From an uncultured Candidatus Saccharibacteria bacterium (lineage in GTDB: Bacteria; Patescibacteriota; Minisyncoccia; Phycocordibacterales; GWA1-40-21), in the NCBI GenBank assembly GCA_964605355.1, contig CAZSCE010000008.1, positions 1-23,814 on the forward strand: a stretch of 23,814 bases of DNA, written 5' to 3'. Positions 1 through 10,740 of this stretch are shown one piece after another. The stretch's first letter is position 1. Every line of letters starts with the position of its first letter. A model generated the notes under the pieces. It saw nothing but the letters and a program-made list of their open reading frames with translations, was not told where the DNA came from and made no database searches. A program made the position numbers and the translations under genes.

Positions 1-132
1 TGCAAGGTTTTTGCAAGCTTTTAGTAAGGTTTTAGGCCTAAATTATCATTGGTGTATACTTATGAGATATATAGTGAGTAAATTGGAGAATATAAGTTGT
101 TTATTAATTCAATCAAGGGTATAATACCAGAG

Positions 133-254
133 TTGACCCATACATGTTTTGTCTCGAAAGCTTTTTTATTGCTTCGTTACCCTAAAGGGGCGACTTGCCA
201 ATGAGGCTGCTTTCGAGCAAGTGTATTGGGTCAACCAGGTCGTCCCTTTAGTGT
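133..254. repeat. Two interleaved imperfect inverted repeats directly upstream of the serine recombinase start. IR1 pairs 133-161 with 209-236 and IR2 pairs 178-196 with 237-254. Candidate recombination (att/res-like) site or operator.
   Basis: Read from the sequence: ctcgaaagc (153-161) against gctttcgag (209-217) is a perfect 9 bp match and extends through TGTAT/GGGTCAA with one indel. The segment taccctaaaggggcgactt (178-196) matches the reverse complement of aggtcgtccctttagtgt (237-254) at 15 of 18 positions. The arms cross, giving the order IR1L-IR2L-IR1R-IR2R. Confidence 0.5.
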
Positions 255-263
255 ATAAAAATT

Positions 264-2042
264 ATGGAAAATGAAATAAAGAAAATTACATGGATTATAT
301 ATGCCCGCAAAAGTACAGAGTCTGAAGATAGACAAATTCAATCTATTGATGATCAGATTAATTATCAGAAAGAAACTGCCGAAAGAGAGGGATTGAATGT
401 TATTAAAATAATTAAGGAATCTAAATCTGCTAAAGAACCACACAAGCGTGATGGGTTTACTGAGTTAGTTAAACTAATAGAAGAAGGTAAGGTGAACGGT
501 GTTCTCACATGGAAAATGGACCGTCTATCTAGAAACCCGATTGATAGTGCTACTATTCAATACTTCCTTCAGAAGAAAAAATTACTTTGTGTTAAAACTG
601 CGGAGAAAAATTACCTGCCAGAAGACAATGCTTTGATTATGTCTGTAGAGAATGGAATGGCTAATCAGTATATTAGAGACTTATCAAAGAATGTTAAAAG
701 AGGTTTAACCTCTAAGGCAGAAAAGGGATGGTTTCCAAATATACCGCCAATTGGATATTTAAATTCAAAGACAAGAGAGAAAGGTTCTGAGACGATTCTA
801 GTTGATGAACAACGATTTCATTTGGTCCGTAAAATCTGGGACTTAATGCTTACAGGAACATACTCCCCTCCTAAAGTATTGGAAATTGCTTCAAATGAAT
901 GGGGTCTAAAAACTCCGCCTCGAAAAAAGCTTGGCGGTAGGCCAATATCTAGAAGCCACATTTATACTATGCTAACTAACGATTTTTACGCTGGTTACTT
1001 TCACTATGGTGGCAAAACCTATATTGGTAAGCATAAGGCCATGATAACTATGGACGAATTTGAGAAGGTCCAGGTTATTCTTGGTAAGAAAGGTAGACCA
1101 AAGACACAATTCAATGACTTCCCTTTTACTGGAATAATGAAGTGTGCTGAATGTGGTGCTAGTGTAACTGCTTCTAGAAAAATGAAACTAGTAAAAGGCA
1201 CTGGGCAGGTGGTCCCATATATTTACTACCACTGCACAAAGAGAAAGCTAAATGTTAAATGTAAATCTAGACCAGTAACACTTTGTGATATGGAGAAAAA
1301 CATTACCGATATAATTGAAAGTAATTTAATTGATCCAGAATTCTATAAGCTTGGTTTAGAAACACTCAAAGATATGCACAGTCTTGAGATTAACAAGAGA
1401 CAACAAATATACGAAACCCAACTTCGAAATGTTGAAGAGACACAAAAGAAGATAGATAGAACACTTGGTTTCTTATTAGATGGAACCATAACAAAAGAAC
1501 AATATAATTTACAGAAGAAAGAATTTGAGGATGAATTAATGAGAGAAAAACAAAAGTTAAGCGAGACTGAAGCTAGAGCTAGAAATTGGACCGAGCTTAC
1601 TGAAAATGTTTTACACTTCTCTTCTTTAGCAATGGAAGCATTGAAAGATGGTAATGTACAAATCAAAAGAGAGATACTAAGTAGTATCGGTTGGAACCAC
1701 AGGCTAGATGGCAAAAAACTGTTTGTAGATCTACATTCCTGGTTTAAAGTACTAAAAGATGGTGAAAAACGACTATTACCTGAAATCAAGGCGTTGGAAC
1801 TAGATAAAATCGTTGACCCACAACGACAAAAGGAGGCTTTCGCCTCCATTCGTCCTAGTCTGTGCGCCGGGTTGGACTCGAACCAACGTAGGCCGAAGCC
1901 GCGAAATTTACAGTCTCGTGTAATTGCCACTATACGACCGGCGCATATTTGTCACAAACACATTCTATCAGATTCTTTATATTTATCAAGAGCTTCTTAT
2001 CGTGGTAACGAATATGAATTAGGCCATGTTTCATCACTCTAG
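264..2042 (+). CDS. Large serine recombinase (resolvase/invertase catalytic domain, recombinase domain, zinc ribbon and coiled coil). The annotated end is the first stop, but the last ~60 codons run antisense through tRNA-Tyr, so the true C-terminus is uncertain.
   Basis: The N-terminal IYARKSTESEDRQ...SIDDQ is the catalytic-serine resolvase motif. Also present are GYLNSKTREKGS, a zinc-ribbon motif (CAECGASVTAS...YYHCTKRK..C) and a long Q/E/K-rich coiled coil. Length and architecture fit phage/ICE-type large serine recombinases. Confidence 0.85.
   Translation: MENEIKKITWIIYARKSTESEDRQIQSIDDQINYQKETAEREGLNVIKIIKESKSAKEPHKRDGFTELVKLIEEGKVNGVLTWKMDRLSRNPIDSATIQYFLQKKKLLCVKTAEKNYLPEDNALIMSVENGMANQYIRDLSKNVKRGLTSKAEKGWFPNIPPIGYLNSKTREKGSETILVDEQRFHLVRKIWDLMLTGTYSPPKVLEIASNEWGLKTPPRKKLGGRPISRSHIYTMLTNDFYAGYFHYGGKTYIGKHKAMITMDEFEKVQVILGKKGRPKTQFNDFPFTGIMKCAECGASVTASRKMKLVKGTGQVVPYIYYHCTKRKLNVKCKSRPVTLCDMEKNITDIIESNLIDPEFYKLGLETLKDMHSLEINKRQQIYETQLRNVEETQKKIDRTLGFLLDGTITKEQYNLQKKEFEDELMREKQKLSETEARARNWTELTENVLHFSSLAMEALKDGNVQIKREILSSIGWNHRLDGKKLFVDLHSWFKVLKDGEKRLLPEIKALELDKIVDPQRQKEAFASIRPSLCAGLDSNQRRPKPRNLQSRVIATIRPAHICHKHILSDSLYLSRASYRGNEYELGHVSSL
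1863..1944 (-). tRNA. tRNA-Tyr (anticodon GUA), type II with a long variable arm; CCA not encoded
   Basis: Minus-strand sequence gcgccgg-tc-gta-tagtggcaat-tac-a-cgaga-cuGUAaa-tttcg-c-ggc-ttcg-gcc-tac-gttgg-ttcgagt-ccaac-ccggcgc-a. It has a 7 bp acceptor stem, a 3 bp D stem, a 5 bp anticodon stem with a GUA anticodon, a UUCG-capped variable arm and a canonical T arm. Confidence 0.85.
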
Positions 2043-5404: not shown

Positions 5405-6271
5405 TTATATAGTACCTATTTCTTTCTTTAAGAGATTAGAAGGTAAATAATTATATAAAGTAGAAACGGTTGAACCAACCTTAATCCCCACCACCTCACC
5501 ATAAAGGTTTAATAACGGCCCACCGGAAATAATATCAACTAAATTCACATTGGTATTTATAGCCACAATTTCTCTAGGGGCTATAGCCGTACTGGTAGCG
5601 GTGCTAGAAGCATTCGCCGCCCTGCCCTCCACATCTACCAGGCTGGAAACAATACCGGTAGAAACAGAATTCTGTGTTTGCCCTCCCCAAGCAATAACTG
5701 TTTGACCAAGTTTGAGAGCATTAGAATCAGAAATGGTGACCGAGGTAAAAGTAACAAGATTTTTTTCATCTTGAATAACTTTTAGGAAATAAAATTGACT
5801 ACCTTCTTTTCTAGGTAAAATACTCACATTATAAAACTTGGCATTATCCAAGGTTACCTGATATTTTCCGCGCAGATCAGCAAAAACATCCCCGGTCACA
5901 ATTAAACCTTCTTTGGAAACTATCGTCCCTAAACCAATAAATGTTCGCTCAGCTACATCACCGGAATTTTCCATATCAGTATAAATTCTGACAATACTGT
6001 TTTTATTTTTATCTACAGACTCCACAATTTTATCATCCTCCTTTACCACCACAGTTTCTCTGGTGATTACAGCGGCGGCATTATTATTTGTTGGCGGAGT
6101 AACAATTTTTTCTATGGTTCTTTCTACCACGCGGTTAATAGTTTGGGTCACGCCGGCTGGAGCCTGGTCCATCAGCGCCACAGTCACAATTCCGGTGGCA
6201 ATAGAAGTCACAAAACTCACAAGTAGAGTCACAAGTACTATCTGTTGTTTTGTAAGTTTTTCCATATCCAT
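5405..6271 (-). CDS. Membrane-anchored trypsin-like (HtrA/DegP S1C family) homolog that lacks the catalytic histidine; probable pseudoprotease
   Basis: N-terminal TM helix (IVLVTLLVSFVTSIATGIVTVALM). The C-terminal DIISGGPLLNLYGEVVGI matches the GNSGGPL serine-box region of HtrA-type proteases. The 288-aa translation contains no His residue at all. Confidence 0.55.
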   Translation of the reverse strand: MDMEKLTKQQIVLVTLLVSFVTSIATGIVTVALMDQAPAGVTQTINRVVERTIEKIVTPPTNNNAAAVITRETVVVKEDDKIVESVDKNKNSIVRIYTDMENSGDVAERTFIGLGTIVSKEGLIVTGDVFADLRGKYQVTLDNAKFYNVSILPRKEGSQFYFLKVIQDEKNLVTFTSVTISDSNALKLGQTVIAWGGQTQNSVSTGIVSSLVDVEGRAANASSTATSTAIAPREIVAINTNVNLVDIISGGPLLNLYGEVVGIKVGSTVSTLYNYLPSNLLKKEIGTI

Positions 6272-10170: not shown

Positions 10171-10740
10171 ATGCCCAAAAAAAGAAAGTGGACAGAAAAT
10201 AATTTAAGACAGGCCGTCATTTCATCAACAAGTATGAGACAGGTACTTGGTAAAATTGGCCTAATTCAAGCTGGGGGAAATTATAATCAAATAAAAAAAT
10301 ATATTAAAGATCTAAAGATTAATATCACACACTTTAAAGGAAAGGGGTGGAACAAAGGAATGACTGGTATTGGTAAGCCAAGGATATGTATAGAAAATAT
10401 TTTGGTAAATAATAGTGATTTTCAAAGTTATAAATTAAAAAATAGACTTTTTGAAATTGGGCTTAAAAATAAGAAGTGCGAGGAGTGTGGCTGGAAAAAA
10501 ATATCAAAAGATGGTAGACTACCACTTGAACTAGACCATATAAATGGAGACAGCCGGGATAATAGAATTGAAAACCTTAGAATTCTTTGTCCAAATTGTC
10601 ATAGTTTAAAATTGACACATAGAGGGAAAAATAGAAAAAGCTCGGGTGGCGGAATTGGTATACGCGCAACACTTAAAATGTTGTCTGCGAAAGCGGATGC
10701 GGGTTCGACTCCCGCCCCGAGCACAGGGAGTGTAATTTAA
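10171..10740 (+). CDS. Free-standing HNH homing endonuclease (phage/Firmicutes-type). The ORF has no stop before entering tRNA-Leu(UAA), so its 3' 100 nt overlap the tRNA.
   Basis: The HNH core KCEECGW...PLELDHINGDSRDNRIENLRILCPNCHS is present. The N-terminal WTENNLRQAV...GGNYNQIKKYIKDLKINITHF module recurs in this endonuclease family. Confidence 0.85.
   Translation: MPKKRKWTENNLRQAVISSTSMRQVLGKIGLIQAGGNYNQIKKYIKDLKINITHFKGKGWNKGMTGIGKPRICIENILVNNSDFQSYKLKNRLFEIGLKNKKCEECGWKKISKDGRLPLELDHINGDSRDNRIENLRILCPNCHSLKLTHRGKNRKSSGGGIGIRATLKMLSAKADAGSTPAPSTGSVI
10640..10723 (+). tRNA. tRNA-Leu (UAA), type II
   Basis: gctcggg-tg-gcgg-aattggtat-acgc-g-caaca-cuUAAaa-tgttg-long variable arm (ctgcg aaa gcgga)-gcggg-ttcgact-cccgc-cccgagc-a. 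Confidence 0.8.

What the first reader, a model, noticed from the sequence alone, without database searches (positions are those of the whole stretch)
133..254. Interleaved (crossing) inverted repeats immediately upstream of the recombinase gene
Two imperfect inverted repeats are interdigitated, IR1L at 133-161, IR2L at 178-196, IR1R at 209-236 and IR2R at 237-254. Both arms cannot form simultaneously as simple hairpins. As DNA this looks like a composite protein-binding site, and large serine recombinase att sites are partial dyads. As RNA it could form a pseudoknot or alternative structures over the recombinase translation start. Either reading makes it a candidate attP/attL-like site or an autoregulatory operator for the recombinase.
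Basis: seen in the sequence. Interest (0 to 1): 0.55.

Follow-up and report, generated by a model that had tools for sequence, protein, structure and literature searches.

The report
Pseudoknotted leader RNA of recombinase gene
The interleaved repeats are real and encode a conserved, roughly 125-nt folded RNA at the start of a large serine recombinase mRNA; it matches no catalogued RNA family, recurs in tRNA-integrating mobile elements of Patescibacteria-like (CPR) bacteria, and probably throttles recombinase expression rather than serving as a DNA attachment site.

Summary
The repeats are at the stated coordinates and exceed chance. They are also conserved. A covariance model finds one + strand copy upstream of about 36 of 91 related large serine recombinase (LSR) genes. 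A TATAAT-like box ends exactly 6 nt before the first paired base in 33 of 35 copies.

The element is the template of a 5' leader RNA. Helices P1, P1b, P2 and P3 form one long hairpin. Its 19-23-nt apical loop is complementary over 13-19 bp to the 3' tail, which starts 0 nt after P1 and ends just before the ATG.

All five helices covary (92.7% paired, 38 of 48 pairs changed on both sides, 0 of 500 shuffles). G.U outnumbers A.C 97 to 20, which points to + strand RNA.

P3 and the full loop-tail helix cannot coexist. The tail helix is GC-rich and followed by U-rich sequence. The likeliest role is a cis-acting attenuator or translation block with two alternative folds; this is inferred.

The attP/attL reading fails. 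The element-host junction is a tRNA gene at the other end of the LSR gene, and no partner site exists in the window. Nothing matched in Rfam, phage, plasmid or IMG/VR searches.

The parts
97..102 (+). -35-like hexamer TTGTTT, 17 nt upstream of the -10 box
   Evidence: Read from the sequence. Homologous loci carry TTG-type hexamers at the same place (printout). It matches only 3 of 6 positions, so the scan did not list it.
120..125 (+). -10 box TATAAT. The predicted transcription start is at about 131-132, the first base of P1.
   Evidence: A hexamer matching TATAAT at 5 of 6 or better ends exactly 6 nt before the first P1 base in 33 of 35 model hits.
132..140 (+). P1 5' strand, GUUGACCCA. It pairs with 227-235.
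   Evidence: I4, 9 of 9. helix 1: 100% of cells paired, 7 of 8 pairs changed on both sides.
141..151 (+). P1b 5' strand. 141-145 pairs with 221-225 and 149-151 pairs with 218-220.
   Evidence: MFE fold. helix 2: 92.5% paired, 5 of 5 pairs covary. The alignment is rough here.
153..161 (+). P2 5' strand, CUCGAAAGC. It pairs with 209-217.
   Evidence: I6, 9 of 9. helix 3: 97.6% paired, 7 of 7 pairs covary.
162..170 (+). U-rich junction UUUUUUAUU between P2 and P3. It is conserved in composition and has no assigned partner.
   Evidence: Alignments.
171..178 (+). P3 5' strand. It pairs with 200-207 (8 bp, two of them G.U) and closes the 21-nt apical loop.
   Evidence: helix 4: 93.8% paired, 7 of 7 pairs covary. 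Window register taken.
178..197 (+). 5' arm of the loop-tail (pseudoknot) helix. It fills the apical loop and contains AAAGGGGCGA.
   Evidence: I1. helix 5: 87.5% paired, 12 of 21 pairs covary, and the helix was not part of the covariance model. RNAalifold picks it on an unfitted alignment..
200..207 (+). P3 3' strand
209..217 (+). P2 3' strand, GCUUUCGAG
218..225 (+). P1b 3' strand
227..235 (+). P1 3' strand, UGGGUCAAC
236..255 (+). 3' arm of the loop-tail helix, CAGGUCGUCCCUUUAGUGUA. It begins 0 nt after P1 and ends 8 nt before the ATG. G190.U243 is the G.U wobble that is conserved in 28 of 30 sequences.
247..263 (+). U/A-rich run after the GC core of the tail helix (UUUAGUGUAUAAAAAUU), leading to the start codon. 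There is no Shine-Dalgarno sequence.
   Evidence: U-rich in all 38 leaders examined, 6.4 U on average in the first 10 nt (6 in the window); most genes of this contig lack an SD.
264..2042 (+). Large serine recombinase ORF. The conserved protein ends near 1850. The reading frame continues across the junction through the antisense of tRNA-Tyr.
   Evidence: Homologues are about 531-607 aa and differ in their C-terminal tails.
1862..1944 (-). tRNA-Tyr, convergent with the recombinase gene. It marks the element-host junction, the real att-derived site.

Best explanation
Positions 132-255 are the DNA template of a structured 5' leader of the large serine recombinase (LSR) mRNA. They are not a DNA recombination site.

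Anatomy. Transcription starts at a sigma-70-type promoter (-10 at 120-125), so the first transcribed base is the first base of helix P1. The 5' part folds into a long interrupted hairpin made of P1, P1b, P2, a U-rich junction and P3. The 21-nt apical loop of that hairpin is complementary to the 20 nt that follow P1 with no spacer (236-255). That tail ends 8 nt before the AUG.

Why two folds. A 13-19 bp duplex cannot sit inside a 19-23 nt loop closed by P3. The RNA therefore has two mutually exclusive states.
- State A is the hairpin with P3 closed. The tail is free.
- State B has P3 open and the loop-tail helix formed, stacked end-to-end on P1.

Proposed function (inferred). State B places a GC-rich helix followed by a U-rich run directly upstream of an SD-less start codon. 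I propose this is the 'off' state. It would act as a split intrinsic terminator, as a block to ribosome loading, or as both, keeping recombinase synthesis low. State A would be the permissive form, either as a kinetic window during transcription or when stabilised by an unknown factor.

Shown: the RNA-level structure, its conservation, its promoter and its linkage to the LSR gene. Inferred: the off/on assignment, termination versus translation block, and the trigger.
For: Structure and conservation:
- (30 distinct sequences): 92.7% of cells paired against 71.3% in shuffles; 38 of 48 pairs changed on both sides; 0 of 500 shuffles reached any of the five measures; slid controls gave 36-51% paired.
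- The loop-tail helix was not in the covariance model, yet it is 87.5% paired with 12 covarying pairs.
- RNAalifold recovers that helix on a plain MAFFT alignment.

Strand and RNA:
- G.U/U.G outnumber A.C/C.A 97 to 20 overall, and 56 to 7 in the unfitted helix.
- One G.U is kept in 28 of 30 sequences and is G-C in the other 2.
- Model hits score about 77-135 bits on the + strand for the 27 best hits. The few reverse-strand hits score 16-24 bits.

Promoter: a -10 box ends exactly 6 nt before P1 in 33 of 35 hits.

Linkage: there is one hit per locus, always on the LSR strand. It ends 8-56 nt before the LSR ATG (median 17). The exception is L039, where one ORF intervenes. Upstream genes belong to unrelated families.

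Two states: loop 19-23 nt against a helix of 13-19 bp; median energies are -27.0 kcal/mol for the loop-tail duplex and -10.1 for P3 plus the apical hairpin.

Terminator-like tail: the GC core is followed by 5-8 U in the next 10 nt in all 38 leaders examined (one apparent exception, L031, was a mis-anchored motif and reads UUCAAGUUUU when placed correctly).

Window-specific significance.
Against: - There are no expression, termination or probing data. The functional assignment is inference.
- The two arms of the putative terminator are 38 nt apart in the window and about 40-55 nt apart in relatives. Canonical terminators have 3-8 nt loops.
- The window's own U run is weak (UUUAGUGUAU).
- In about a quarter of the loci the tail helix ends more than 20 nt before the ATG, and in L039 about 70 nt before the next ORF. 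Simple occlusion of the start site cannot be universal.
- Close relatives of this very recombinase (L001 97%, L256 79%, L258 77%) have no leader, only a promoter about 15-25 nt from the ATG. The leader is dispensable.
- The helices are conserved in sequence as well as in pairing. That hints at a protein partner or an extra constraint this model does not explain.
- The nested helices were counted on an alignment fitted to them.
Confidence: 0.55

Rival explanations
1. DNA-level site. The repeats would be recombinase binding sites, either an attP/attL-like attachment site or an operator at which the LSR represses its own promoter.
For:
- P1 and the tail helix are unusually conserved in sequence.
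- A third GTTGACCCA lies at 1812-1820 near the junction. Three copies are seen against 0.15 expected.
Against: - The junction with host DNA is at the tRNA at the other end of the gene, here and in relatives.
- No second copy of either long arm exists in the window.
- The third 9-mer does not recur in 27 of the 28 other leader-bearing loci checked; L008 has an extra copy at an unrelated upstream position. In the two close relatives checked, the same position carries the related coding sequence TTGACCCACAA.
- Leader-to-junction similarity equals the control: 10.8 against 11.0 matches of 14.
- G.U over A.C asymmetry and compensatory changes in variable helices are not expected for protein half-sites.
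- The repeats begin exactly at the predicted +1.
Confidence: 0.05
2. Stand-alone small RNA. The roughly 125-nt RNA would be a separate product ending at the tail helix and U run. It would act in trans, for example as a cofactor or directionality or copy-number regulator of the element. The recombinase would be made from read-through or from a second promoter.
For: - It has its own promoter and a terminator-like 3' end.
- Some loci have a -10-like box between the motif and the ATG. Examples are L030 TGTATAAT, L085 TATAAT, L047 TACAAT and the window TATAAA at 254-259.
- L039 has the motif 70 nt before another ORF.
- The helices are conserved in sequence.
Against: - In most loci only 2-10 nt separate the helix from the ATG, with no room for another promoter.
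- There are no unpaired variable segments that could serve as guides. The variable positions are all paired.
- Leader variants do not sort with the tRNA targeted, by inspection of the leader sequences against the adjacent tRNAs.
- Close relatives function without it.
Confidence: 0.12
3. mRNA stability or processing element. The 5'-terminal helix that starts at +1, and the roughly 28-bp P1/tail stack, would protect the 5' end from 5'-end-dependent nucleases or form an RNase III substrate that sets mRNA half-life.
For: - The first transcribed base is paired in 33 of 35 main-type leaders, and also in the L002-type variant.
- P1 and the tail helix abut with no spacer.
- The long near-continuous duplexes are of RNase III size.
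Against: A plain 5' hairpin would suffice for protection. This reading does not explain selection for both P3 and the competing loop-tail helix, nor the U-rich run. No nuclease data exist.
Confidence: 0.13
4. Ligand- or protein-sensing riboswitch-like leader. A metabolite or protein would bind the hairpin junctions and decide between the two folds.
For: - The architecture has two states, with an expression-platform-like tail.
- The U-rich and A-rich junctions are conserved.
Against: The conserved nucleotides lie mostly inside helices. The junctions are conserved in composition rather than in sequence, unlike known aptamers. Rfam gives no match. No candidate ligand is in view.
Confidence: 0.1
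5. Replication origin or single-strand initiation signal of the mobile element, recognised as folded single-stranded DNA by the neighbouring primase.
For: It lies just downstream of a primase-helicase gene in several loci. The strand-specific structure with G.T pairs would also fit single-stranded DNA.
Against: - In other leader-bearing loci the upstream replication genes belong to unrelated families: G2P-like, AAA_25, RepO-like, HTH/RepL-like and Prim-Pol.
- The constant partner is the LSR gene, at a fixed short distance and in the same orientation.
- The -10 box sits at a fixed 6-nt spacing.
Confidence: 0.03

Closest known systems
Transcription attenuators and riboswitch expression platforms (intrinsic terminator versus competing helix)
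   Same: A GC-rich helix followed by a U-rich run lies between a promoter and the regulated ORF. A second, mutually exclusive helix (P3) could prevent it from forming.
   Different: The terminator-like arms are about 40-55 nt apart. The intervening bases are paired to the 5' end of the RNA, giving a pseudoknot. P3 and the tail helix share no nucleotides and exclude each other topologically, by loop closure, rather than by competing for a strand. No aptamer or ligand has been identified.
Long-range fold-back or pseudoknot translational repressors (my own knowledge: hok mRNA fbi element, IS10 transposase fold-back inhibition, E. coli rpsO/S15 and alpha-operon/S4 leader pseudoknots)
   Same: Long-distance pairing within an mRNA leader brings a stable helix up to the start codon. 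There are alternative conformers. Such leaders are used to keep transposase, toxin or ribosomal-protein synthesis low.
   Different: No effector protein or processing step is known here. In about a quarter of the loci the helix ends more than 20 nt before the ATG. The host mostly lacks Shine-Dalgarno sequences.
Large serine recombinase attP/attB/attL/attR sites
   Same: Imperfect inverted repeats next to an LSR gene.
   Different: att sites are single 40-50 bp dyads around a 2-bp crossover at the element boundary. Here two interleaved repeat sets span 124 bp inside the element, start at the transcription start, carry an RNA-type G.U bias, and have no partner. The true junction is the tRNA at the other end of the gene.
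IS110-family bridge RNA (my own knowledge)
   Same: A structured non-coding RNA of about 100-180 nt is encoded directly upstream of a recombinase ORF and starts at its own promoter.
   Different: The enzyme family differs: Resolvase, Recombinase and Zn-ribbon domains here, not a RuvC-like DEDD domain plus Tnp. There are no unpaired guide loops. The variable positions are all base-paired and do not track the target tRNA.
Classical H-type pseudoknot
   Same: The strand order is S1-5', S2-5', S1-3', S2-3'.
   Different: The zero-length connector lies between S1-3' and S2-3', not between S2-5' and S1-3'. The two helices are therefore continuous on the 3' strand, and the RNA's 5' end abuts the end of the loop arm. 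S2 (13-19 bp) is far longer than a loop closed by P3 can accommodate.
tRNA-targeting integrative elements with a replication module plus an integrase (my own knowledge: tycheposons, PICI-like satellites)
   Same: The genomic context matches: a small element with a primase or Rep gene and an integrase at its edge, inserted at the 3' end of a tRNA gene.
   Different: This comparison concerns the carrier element, not the RNA. To my knowledge no such integrase leader RNA has been described for those elements.

Membership tests
LSR attachment site (attP/attL/attR) | A single imperfect dyad of about 40-50 bp centred on a 2-bp crossover | tested here: not met
   two crossing repeat sets span 132-255, with 38-86 nt between partner arms.
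LSR attachment site (attP/attL/attR) | Lies at the boundary between the element and host DNA | tested here: not met
   The boundary is at tRNA-Tyr 1862-1944, beyond the 3' end of the LSR gene. Synteny with L001 and L256 resumes there. The same arrangement holds with 11 different tRNA species in relatives.
LSR attachment site (attP/attL/attR) | A partner site sharing half-site sequence | tested here: not met
   No second copy of either long arm at up to 3 mismatches in the 23.8-kb window. Leader-to-junction similarity equals the control in 21 loci. The rest of the genome was not available.
LSR attachment site (attP/attL/attR) | Duplex-DNA constraint, so no strand bias among non-Watson-Crick positions | tested here: not met
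   G.U/U.G 97 against A.C/C.A 20; 56 against 7 in the helix that was not fitted by the model.
Any Rfam 15 family | Reaches the family's gathering score | tested here: not met
   One search found only tRNAs. In one search the best hit over 1-400 was 21.7 bits against a gathering score of 55 (a plant miRNA model, a chance match to a hairpin).
Cis-regulatory 5' leader RNA | Transcribed from a promoter, on the strand of the regulated ORF and directly upstream of it, in all instances | tested here: met
   The -10 box is at a fixed 6-nt spacing in 33 of 35 hits. All strong hits are on the LSR strand and end 8-56 nt before the ATG, except L039. Transcription itself is predicted, not observed.
Cis-regulatory 5' leader RNA | Changes expression of the downstream gene | not testable with these tools
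   Needs reporter, termination or toeprint assays.
Intrinsic (Rho-independent) terminator | GC-rich stem | tested here: met
   The core GGGGCG(G/A):(C/U)CGUCCC is nearly invariant. The median duplex energy is -27 kcal/mol.
Intrinsic (Rho-independent) terminator | U tract immediately 3' of the stem | tested here: inconclusive
   There are 5-8 U in the first 10 nt after the core in all 38 leaders (mean 6.4). The run is interrupted, and the window has only UUUAGUGUAU.
Intrinsic (Rho-independent) terminator | Short hairpin loop (about 3-8 nt) | tested here: not met
   38 nt separate the arms in the window, and about 40-55 nt in relatives.
Classical H-type pseudoknot | Crossing order S1-5', S2-5', S1-3', S2-3' | tested here: met
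Classical H-type pseudoknot | Connector lengths that allow both stems to form together | tested here: not met
   The connector between P1-3' and the tail arm is 0 nt. The loop of 19-23 nt holds a 13-19 bp helix, so P3 must open. This is a geometric argument, not a 3D model.
Riboswitch | Aptamer with conserved unpaired nucleotides, and a known ligand | tested here: inconclusive
   The junctions are conserved in composition (U-rich, A-rich) rather than in sequence. The ligand question cannot be tested here.
IS110-type bridge RNA | Partner enzyme is a DEDD (RuvC-like) plus Tnp recombinase | tested here: not met
   Pfam finds Resolvase, Recombinase and Zn_ribbon_recom.
IS110-type bridge RNA | Unpaired guide loops that covary with target and donor DNA | tested here: not met
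   The variable positions are all in helices. Loci targeting the same tRNA (Asn, His) carry different leader variants, by inspection of the leader sequences against the adjacent tRNAs.

The most novel reading that the evidence does not exclude
This would be a previously undescribed class of recombinase-associated RNA. It is a leader in which a terminator-like or start-blocking helix is split across a pseudoknot. That helix is controlled by topological exclusion: a loop-closing stem that shares no nucleotides with it. The RNA's triphosphate end sits flush against the helix.

In the boldest version, the RNA is sensed by the recombinase or an element-encoded factor. It would then couple integration or excision of tRNA-targeting Patescibacteria-like (CPR) elements to cell state, or it would act in trans as an RNA directionality or copy-number factor.
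Probability: 0.25. Interest if true: 0.75.

Novelty: new variant of a known kind. Interest (0 to 1): 0.6.

Why it matters
Large serine recombinases are widely mined as genome-integration tools, yet little is known about how mobile elements control their expression. This motif is a ready-made case.
- It is a covariation-supported RNA of about 125 nt, with dozens of natural variants and natural 'leaderless' controls.
- It lies in front of a whole family of tRNA-targeting recombinases from Patescibacteria-like (CPR) bacteria, organisms with almost no experimental genetics.
- Its unusual topology has two crossing helices joined without a spacer, one of them incompatible with a loop-closing stem. 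A third arrangement, with permuted strand order, occurs in a sister clade. This makes it a good test object for how pseudoknots can gate termination or initiation.

The result also corrects an annotation risk. The repeats look like an att site but are not one.

Tried and rejected
- Rfam at gathering and at E up to 10 gave nothing.
- BLAST of the window leader and of a consensus-like leader against phage and plasmid collections gave no match.
- IMG/VR: a loose gapped pattern gave at least 120 matching stretches (80 listed), and none of the 80 listed was confirmed by the model. The exact 17-mer AACCAGACCGTCCCTTT gave 0 matches. The 45 IMG/VR loci with more distant LSRs gave no model hit.
- The third GTTGACCCA at 1812 as an att half-site: rejected. 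It recurs at that place in none of the other leader-bearing loci checked, and the two close relatives checked carry the related coding sequence TTGACCCACAA there.
- Direct repeats to define the left end of the element in L256 and L257: none found, as expected for serine integrases. The element size stays undefined.
- Guide-RNA idea: rejected. The variable bases are paired, and leader variants do not follow the target tRNA, by inspection.
- DNA inversion switch between the P1 arms, which would flip the loop and abolish the tail helix: considered. All of the roughly 45 leaders seen have the loop in the pairing orientation, and compensatory and G.U changes in the inner helices argue for RNA. Not pursued.
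- Leader peptide: the window has a 13-codon ORF at 143-184, but it is not conserved because it lies in variable helices.
- U-rich junction pairing with the spacer before the ATG: possible in the window (163-169 with 255-261) but not in relatives.
- Literature searches found no description of this element. One search failed on syntax.
- MAFFT alignments misalign the variable helices. Nested-helix statistics therefore rest on model-fitted alignments.
Full report
1. THE OBSERVATION

The window is a 23.8-kb contig of an AT-rich bacterium. It carries ClpB, a short IF-2, tRNA genes and mostly SD-less genes. Its closest relatives among the fetched loci include MAGs labelled Candidatus Saccharibacteria and Candidatus Nomurabacteria.

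The ORF at 264-2042 is a large serine recombinase (LSR), with Resolvase, Recombinase and Zn_ribbon_recom domains.

- 132-140 with 227-235 (9 of 9);
- 153-161 with 209-217 (9 of 9);
- 178-197 with 236-255 (85% as DNA; 19 of 20 as + strand RNA when two G.U pairs are counted).

The two sets cross. The signal exceeds chance. The + strand fold of 126-275 has z = -5.4 against dinucleotide shuffles. The crossing loop-tail duplex is -29.2 kcal/mol against -11.3 +/- 3.6, with 0 of 1000 shuffles as good, and it is weaker on the other strand at -20.7.

A fourth nested helix, P3 at 171-178/200-207, was missed.

2. THE ELEMENT IS CONSERVED AND SITS IN FRONT OF A FAMILY OF LSR GENES

I collected LSR loci from three sources: 10 from genomes, 80 from metagenomes and 45 from IMG/VR.

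Printing the 175 nt upstream of each start codon showed the same architecture in many loci whose LSRs are only 37-48% identical to the window's.

I built a covariance model from six leaders (A4, R1) and rebuilt it from 27 (R2). R2 finds one + strand hit per locus in about 36 of the 91 genome and metagenome sources, including the window at 86.6 bits.
- The 27 best + strand hits score about 77-135 bits.
- The few reverse-strand hits score 16-24 bits.
- There is nothing in the 45 IMG/VR loci.

All hits lie directly before the LSR ATG. The one exception is L039, where a 294-codon ORF lies between the motif and the LSR.

More divergent versions were recognised by eye in L260, L264 and L266, and in L018, L025, L033, L046, L075, L082 and L086.

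3. IT IS RNA, AND IT STARTS AT P1

(a) Promoter. In 33 of 35 hits, a hexamer matching TATAAT at 5 of 6 or better ends exactly 6 nt before the first P1 base. TTG-type -35 elements lie upstream. In the window the -10 box is 120-125 and P1 starts at 132.

(b) Covariation. On the 30-sequence alignment A8, 92.7% of cells form pairs, against 71.3% in shuffles and 36-51% when partners are slid. Of 48 pairs, 38 show changes on both sides, and 0 of 500 shuffles reach any of the five measures. By helix:
- P1: 100% paired, 7 of 8 pairs covarying.
- P1b: 5 of 5 covarying.
- P2: 7 of 7 covarying.
- P3: 7 of 7 covarying.
- Loop-tail helix: 87.5% paired, 12 of 21 covarying.

The nested helices were fitted by the model, which favours them. 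The loop-tail helix was not in the model, so its support is independent. RNAalifold on a plain MAFFT alignment picks precisely this helix.

(c) Strand bias. G.U/U.G pairs outnumber A.C/C.A 97 to 20, and 56 to 7 in the unfitted helix. One G.U (window G190.U243) is kept in 28 of 30 sequences and is G-C in the other two. A duplex-DNA protein site would show no such bias.

4. ANATOMY

In window coordinates: P1 132-140/227-235. P1b 141-145 and 149-151 with 218-225. P2 153-161/209-217. U-rich junction 162-170. P3 171-178/200-207. Apical loop and 5' arm of the tail helix 178-197. 3' arm 236-255, beginning with no spacer after P1 and ending 8 nt before the ATG at 264.

Across 30 leaders the apical loop is 19-23 nt, and 13-19 of those nucleotides pair with the tail. 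A duplex of that length cannot be closed into a hairpin loop by P3. P3 and the full tail helix are therefore mutually exclusive, although they share no nucleotides. Both covary, so both must form at some time.

Median energies are -27.0 kcal/mol for the tail duplex and -10.1 for P3 plus the apical hairpin. Before any pseudoknot penalty, the tail-helix state is nominally 12 kcal/mol more stable.

P1 and the tail helix are continuous on the 3' strand, and the RNA starts at P1. In the tail-helix state, the 5' terminal base therefore abuts the last base of the loop arm.

5. WHAT THE TAIL HELIX DOES (INFERENCE)

In all 38 leaders examined, the GC-rich core (…GUCCC) is followed by a U-rich run. There are 5-8 U in the next 10 nt, mean 6.4 (one listed outlier, L031, was a mis-anchored motif). 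The distance from the core to the ATG ranges from 8 to 56 nt, with a median of 17.

There is almost never a Shine-Dalgarno sequence. Most genes of this contig lack one too, and several have a TATAAT 6-10 nt from the ATG. Initiation in this organism probably depends on unstructured A/U-rich sequence.

A stable helix ending 2-10 nt before such a start codon should hinder ribosome loading. The GC-stem-plus-U-run layout is that of an intrinsic terminator, and it also fits the loci where the ATG is far away (L008, L030, L039, L047, L071, L085).

I therefore favour a cis-acting throttle. The tail-helix state would be 'off', by termination, by a start-site block, or by both. The hairpin state with P3 closed would be permissive.

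The weak points are the 38-55 nt between the terminator-like arms, the poor U run in the window itself, and the complete lack of expression data. The trigger is unknown. It could be a kinetic window, a protein or a ligand.

6. WHY IT IS NOT AN ATT SITE, AN OPERATOR COPY OF ONE, OR AN ORIGIN

The LSR reading frame runs on through the antisense of tRNA-Tyr at 1862-1944. Homologues have C-terminal tails of different length, giving proteins of about 531-607 aa.

In nearly every locus that extends far enough, a convergent tRNA gene sits about 1.6 kb after the LSR start. The species seen are His, Val, Asn, Glu, Gln, Arg, Asp, Ser, Trp, Tyr and Phe.

Synteny with L001 and L256 resumes at the tRNA and ClpB. 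The element-host junction is therefore at the 3' end of the gene, and the element extends leftwards off the contig.

Further points against a DNA-site reading:
- No second copy of either long arm occurs in the window.
- A third GTTGACCCA at 1812 is statistically unexpected. It recurs at that place in none of the other leader-bearing loci checked, and the two close relatives checked carry the related coding sequence TTGACCCACAA there.
- Leader-versus-junction similarity equals the control.

The genes upstream of the leader belong to unrelated replication families. These are Toprim primase-helicase, Prim-Pol, G2P-like, AAA_25, RepO-like and HTH/RepL-like. That argues against an origin recognised by one initiator.

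7. MODULARITY AND A PERMUTED VARIANT

The closest relatives of this recombinase do not share its leader.
- L001 (97% aa), L256 (79%, same tRNA-Tyr/ClpB site) and L258 have only a promoter about 15-25 nt from the ATG.
- L002-L006, L012, L259 and L262 (59-80%) carry a variant leader.

In the variant, the tail again pairs contiguously with two separated upstream segments. These are Pb, equivalent in sequence and position to P1, and Pc, equivalent to the tail helix. A further helix, Pa, starts at +1 and crosses both.
- Pa and Pc show obvious compensatory changes.
- Pb is supported by distinct compensatory versions in L002, L003, L005 and L259: UUAAGACC/GGUCUUAA, UAAAAUCC/GGAUUUUA, UAAGAUUCC/GGAUCUUA and UAAGGCCC/GGGCUUUA.
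- Pb is weak in L004, L006 and L012, and there are only seven sequences.

The leader is thus an exchangeable module. Its constant features are a 5'-terminal helix, a U-rich linker, and a tail that pairs across other helices up to the start region.

8. COMPARISON WITH KNOWN SYSTEMS AND NOVELTY

No Rfam 15 family matches. Nothing matches in the phage, plasmid or IMG/VR collections. I found no paper describing it.

Functionally it most resembles attenuator or expression-platform leaders and fold-back or pseudoknot translational repressors. It differs from them in its split, pseudoknotted terminator-like helix and in exclusion by topology rather than by a shared strand.

It fails the tests for an att site, a classical H-type pseudoknot and a bridge RNA. 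The bridge RNA tests fail because the enzyme family is different and there are no unpaired guides.

I rate it a new variant of a known kind, a cis-regulatory leader RNA.
- Confidence that it is a real, conserved leader RNA is high.
- Confidence in the specific off-switch mechanism is moderate (overall 0.55).
- Interest is 0.6. It is a well-supported new RNA motif tied to an enzyme family of practical importance, in organisms that are hard to study, with an unusual and testable topology.

Noticed in passing
window 1850-2042 and 1862-1944: The LSR reading frame continues about 60 codons past the conserved protein end, through the antisense of tRNA-Tyr. Homologues have C-terminal tails of different length, giving proteins of about 531-607 aa. 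Integration therefore changes the recombinase C-terminus.
   Followed up: partly
window 1832-1847 (- strand): The terminator-like hairpin GGAGGCGAAAGCCTCC plus a T run lies just downstream of the tRNA-Tyr 3' end, inside the LSR coding sequence. It encodes the conserved KEAFASI. The element seems to supply the terminator of the tRNA gene it occupies.
   Followed up: no
window 1812-1820: A third exact copy of the P1 9-mer GTTGACCCA (3 copies seen against 0.15 expected). The two close relatives checked carry the related coding sequence TTGACCCACAA at this position, and no third copy recurs there in the other leader-bearing loci checked.
   Followed up: yes
window 1-35: Three to four tandem 11-nt units (TGCAAGGTTTT, TGCAAGCTTTT, AGTAAGGTTTT) at the very end of the contig, just upstream of the LSR promoter. 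They could be iteron-like, or the reason the assembly broke here.
   Followed up: no
window, gene starts at 6271(-), 7645(+), 22673(-) and others: Most genes lack a Shine-Dalgarno sequence. Several have a TATAAT only 6-10 nt upstream of the ATG, which suggests frequent leaderless or very short-leader mRNAs in this organism.
   Followed up: partly
window 254-259: A -10-like TATAAA overlaps the end of the tail helix, 4 nt before the LSR ATG. Comparable boxes occur between motif and ATG in L030, L047 and L085. This may be a second promoter giving a leaderless LSR mRNA.
   Followed up: no
L001 2700-3000; L256 9960-10000; L258 about 560-600: The closest LSR relatives (97%, 79% and 77% aa) sit at the same tRNA-Tyr/ClpB site but lack the leader altogether. 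The leader has been swapped or lost recently.
   Followed up: partly
L002-L006, L012, L259, L262 (about 125 nt before the LSR ATG): A variant leader in which three helices (Pa, Pb, Pc) all cross one another. The strand order of the 5' arms is permuted relative to the main type.
   Followed up: partly
L039 1374-1525: The motif precedes a two-gene unit, an unknown 294-aa protein followed by the LSR. It is followed by a strong U run (CCCUUUUUGUUUUGUUUG) about 70 nt before the next ATG.
   Followed up: partly
L256 1-9978: The element's cargo next to the primase includes a DUF3800 protein and a 1006-aa Peptidase_C14 plus helicase protein. This may be a defence-type cargo on a tRNA-integrating Patescibacteria-like (CPR) element.
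   Followed up: no
window 197-200 and A3 columns 73-76/104-107: The conserved GCCA after the loop arm could pair with YUGG at the start of the P1 3' strand (RNAalifold; one column pair shows GC 7, AU 6, GU 6). This small helix would compete with the top of P1 and with P3.
   Followed up: no
window 10171-10740 with 10640-10724: The listed 189-codon ORF overlaps tRNA-Leu on the same strand. It is probably not a real gene over its full length.
   Followed up: no
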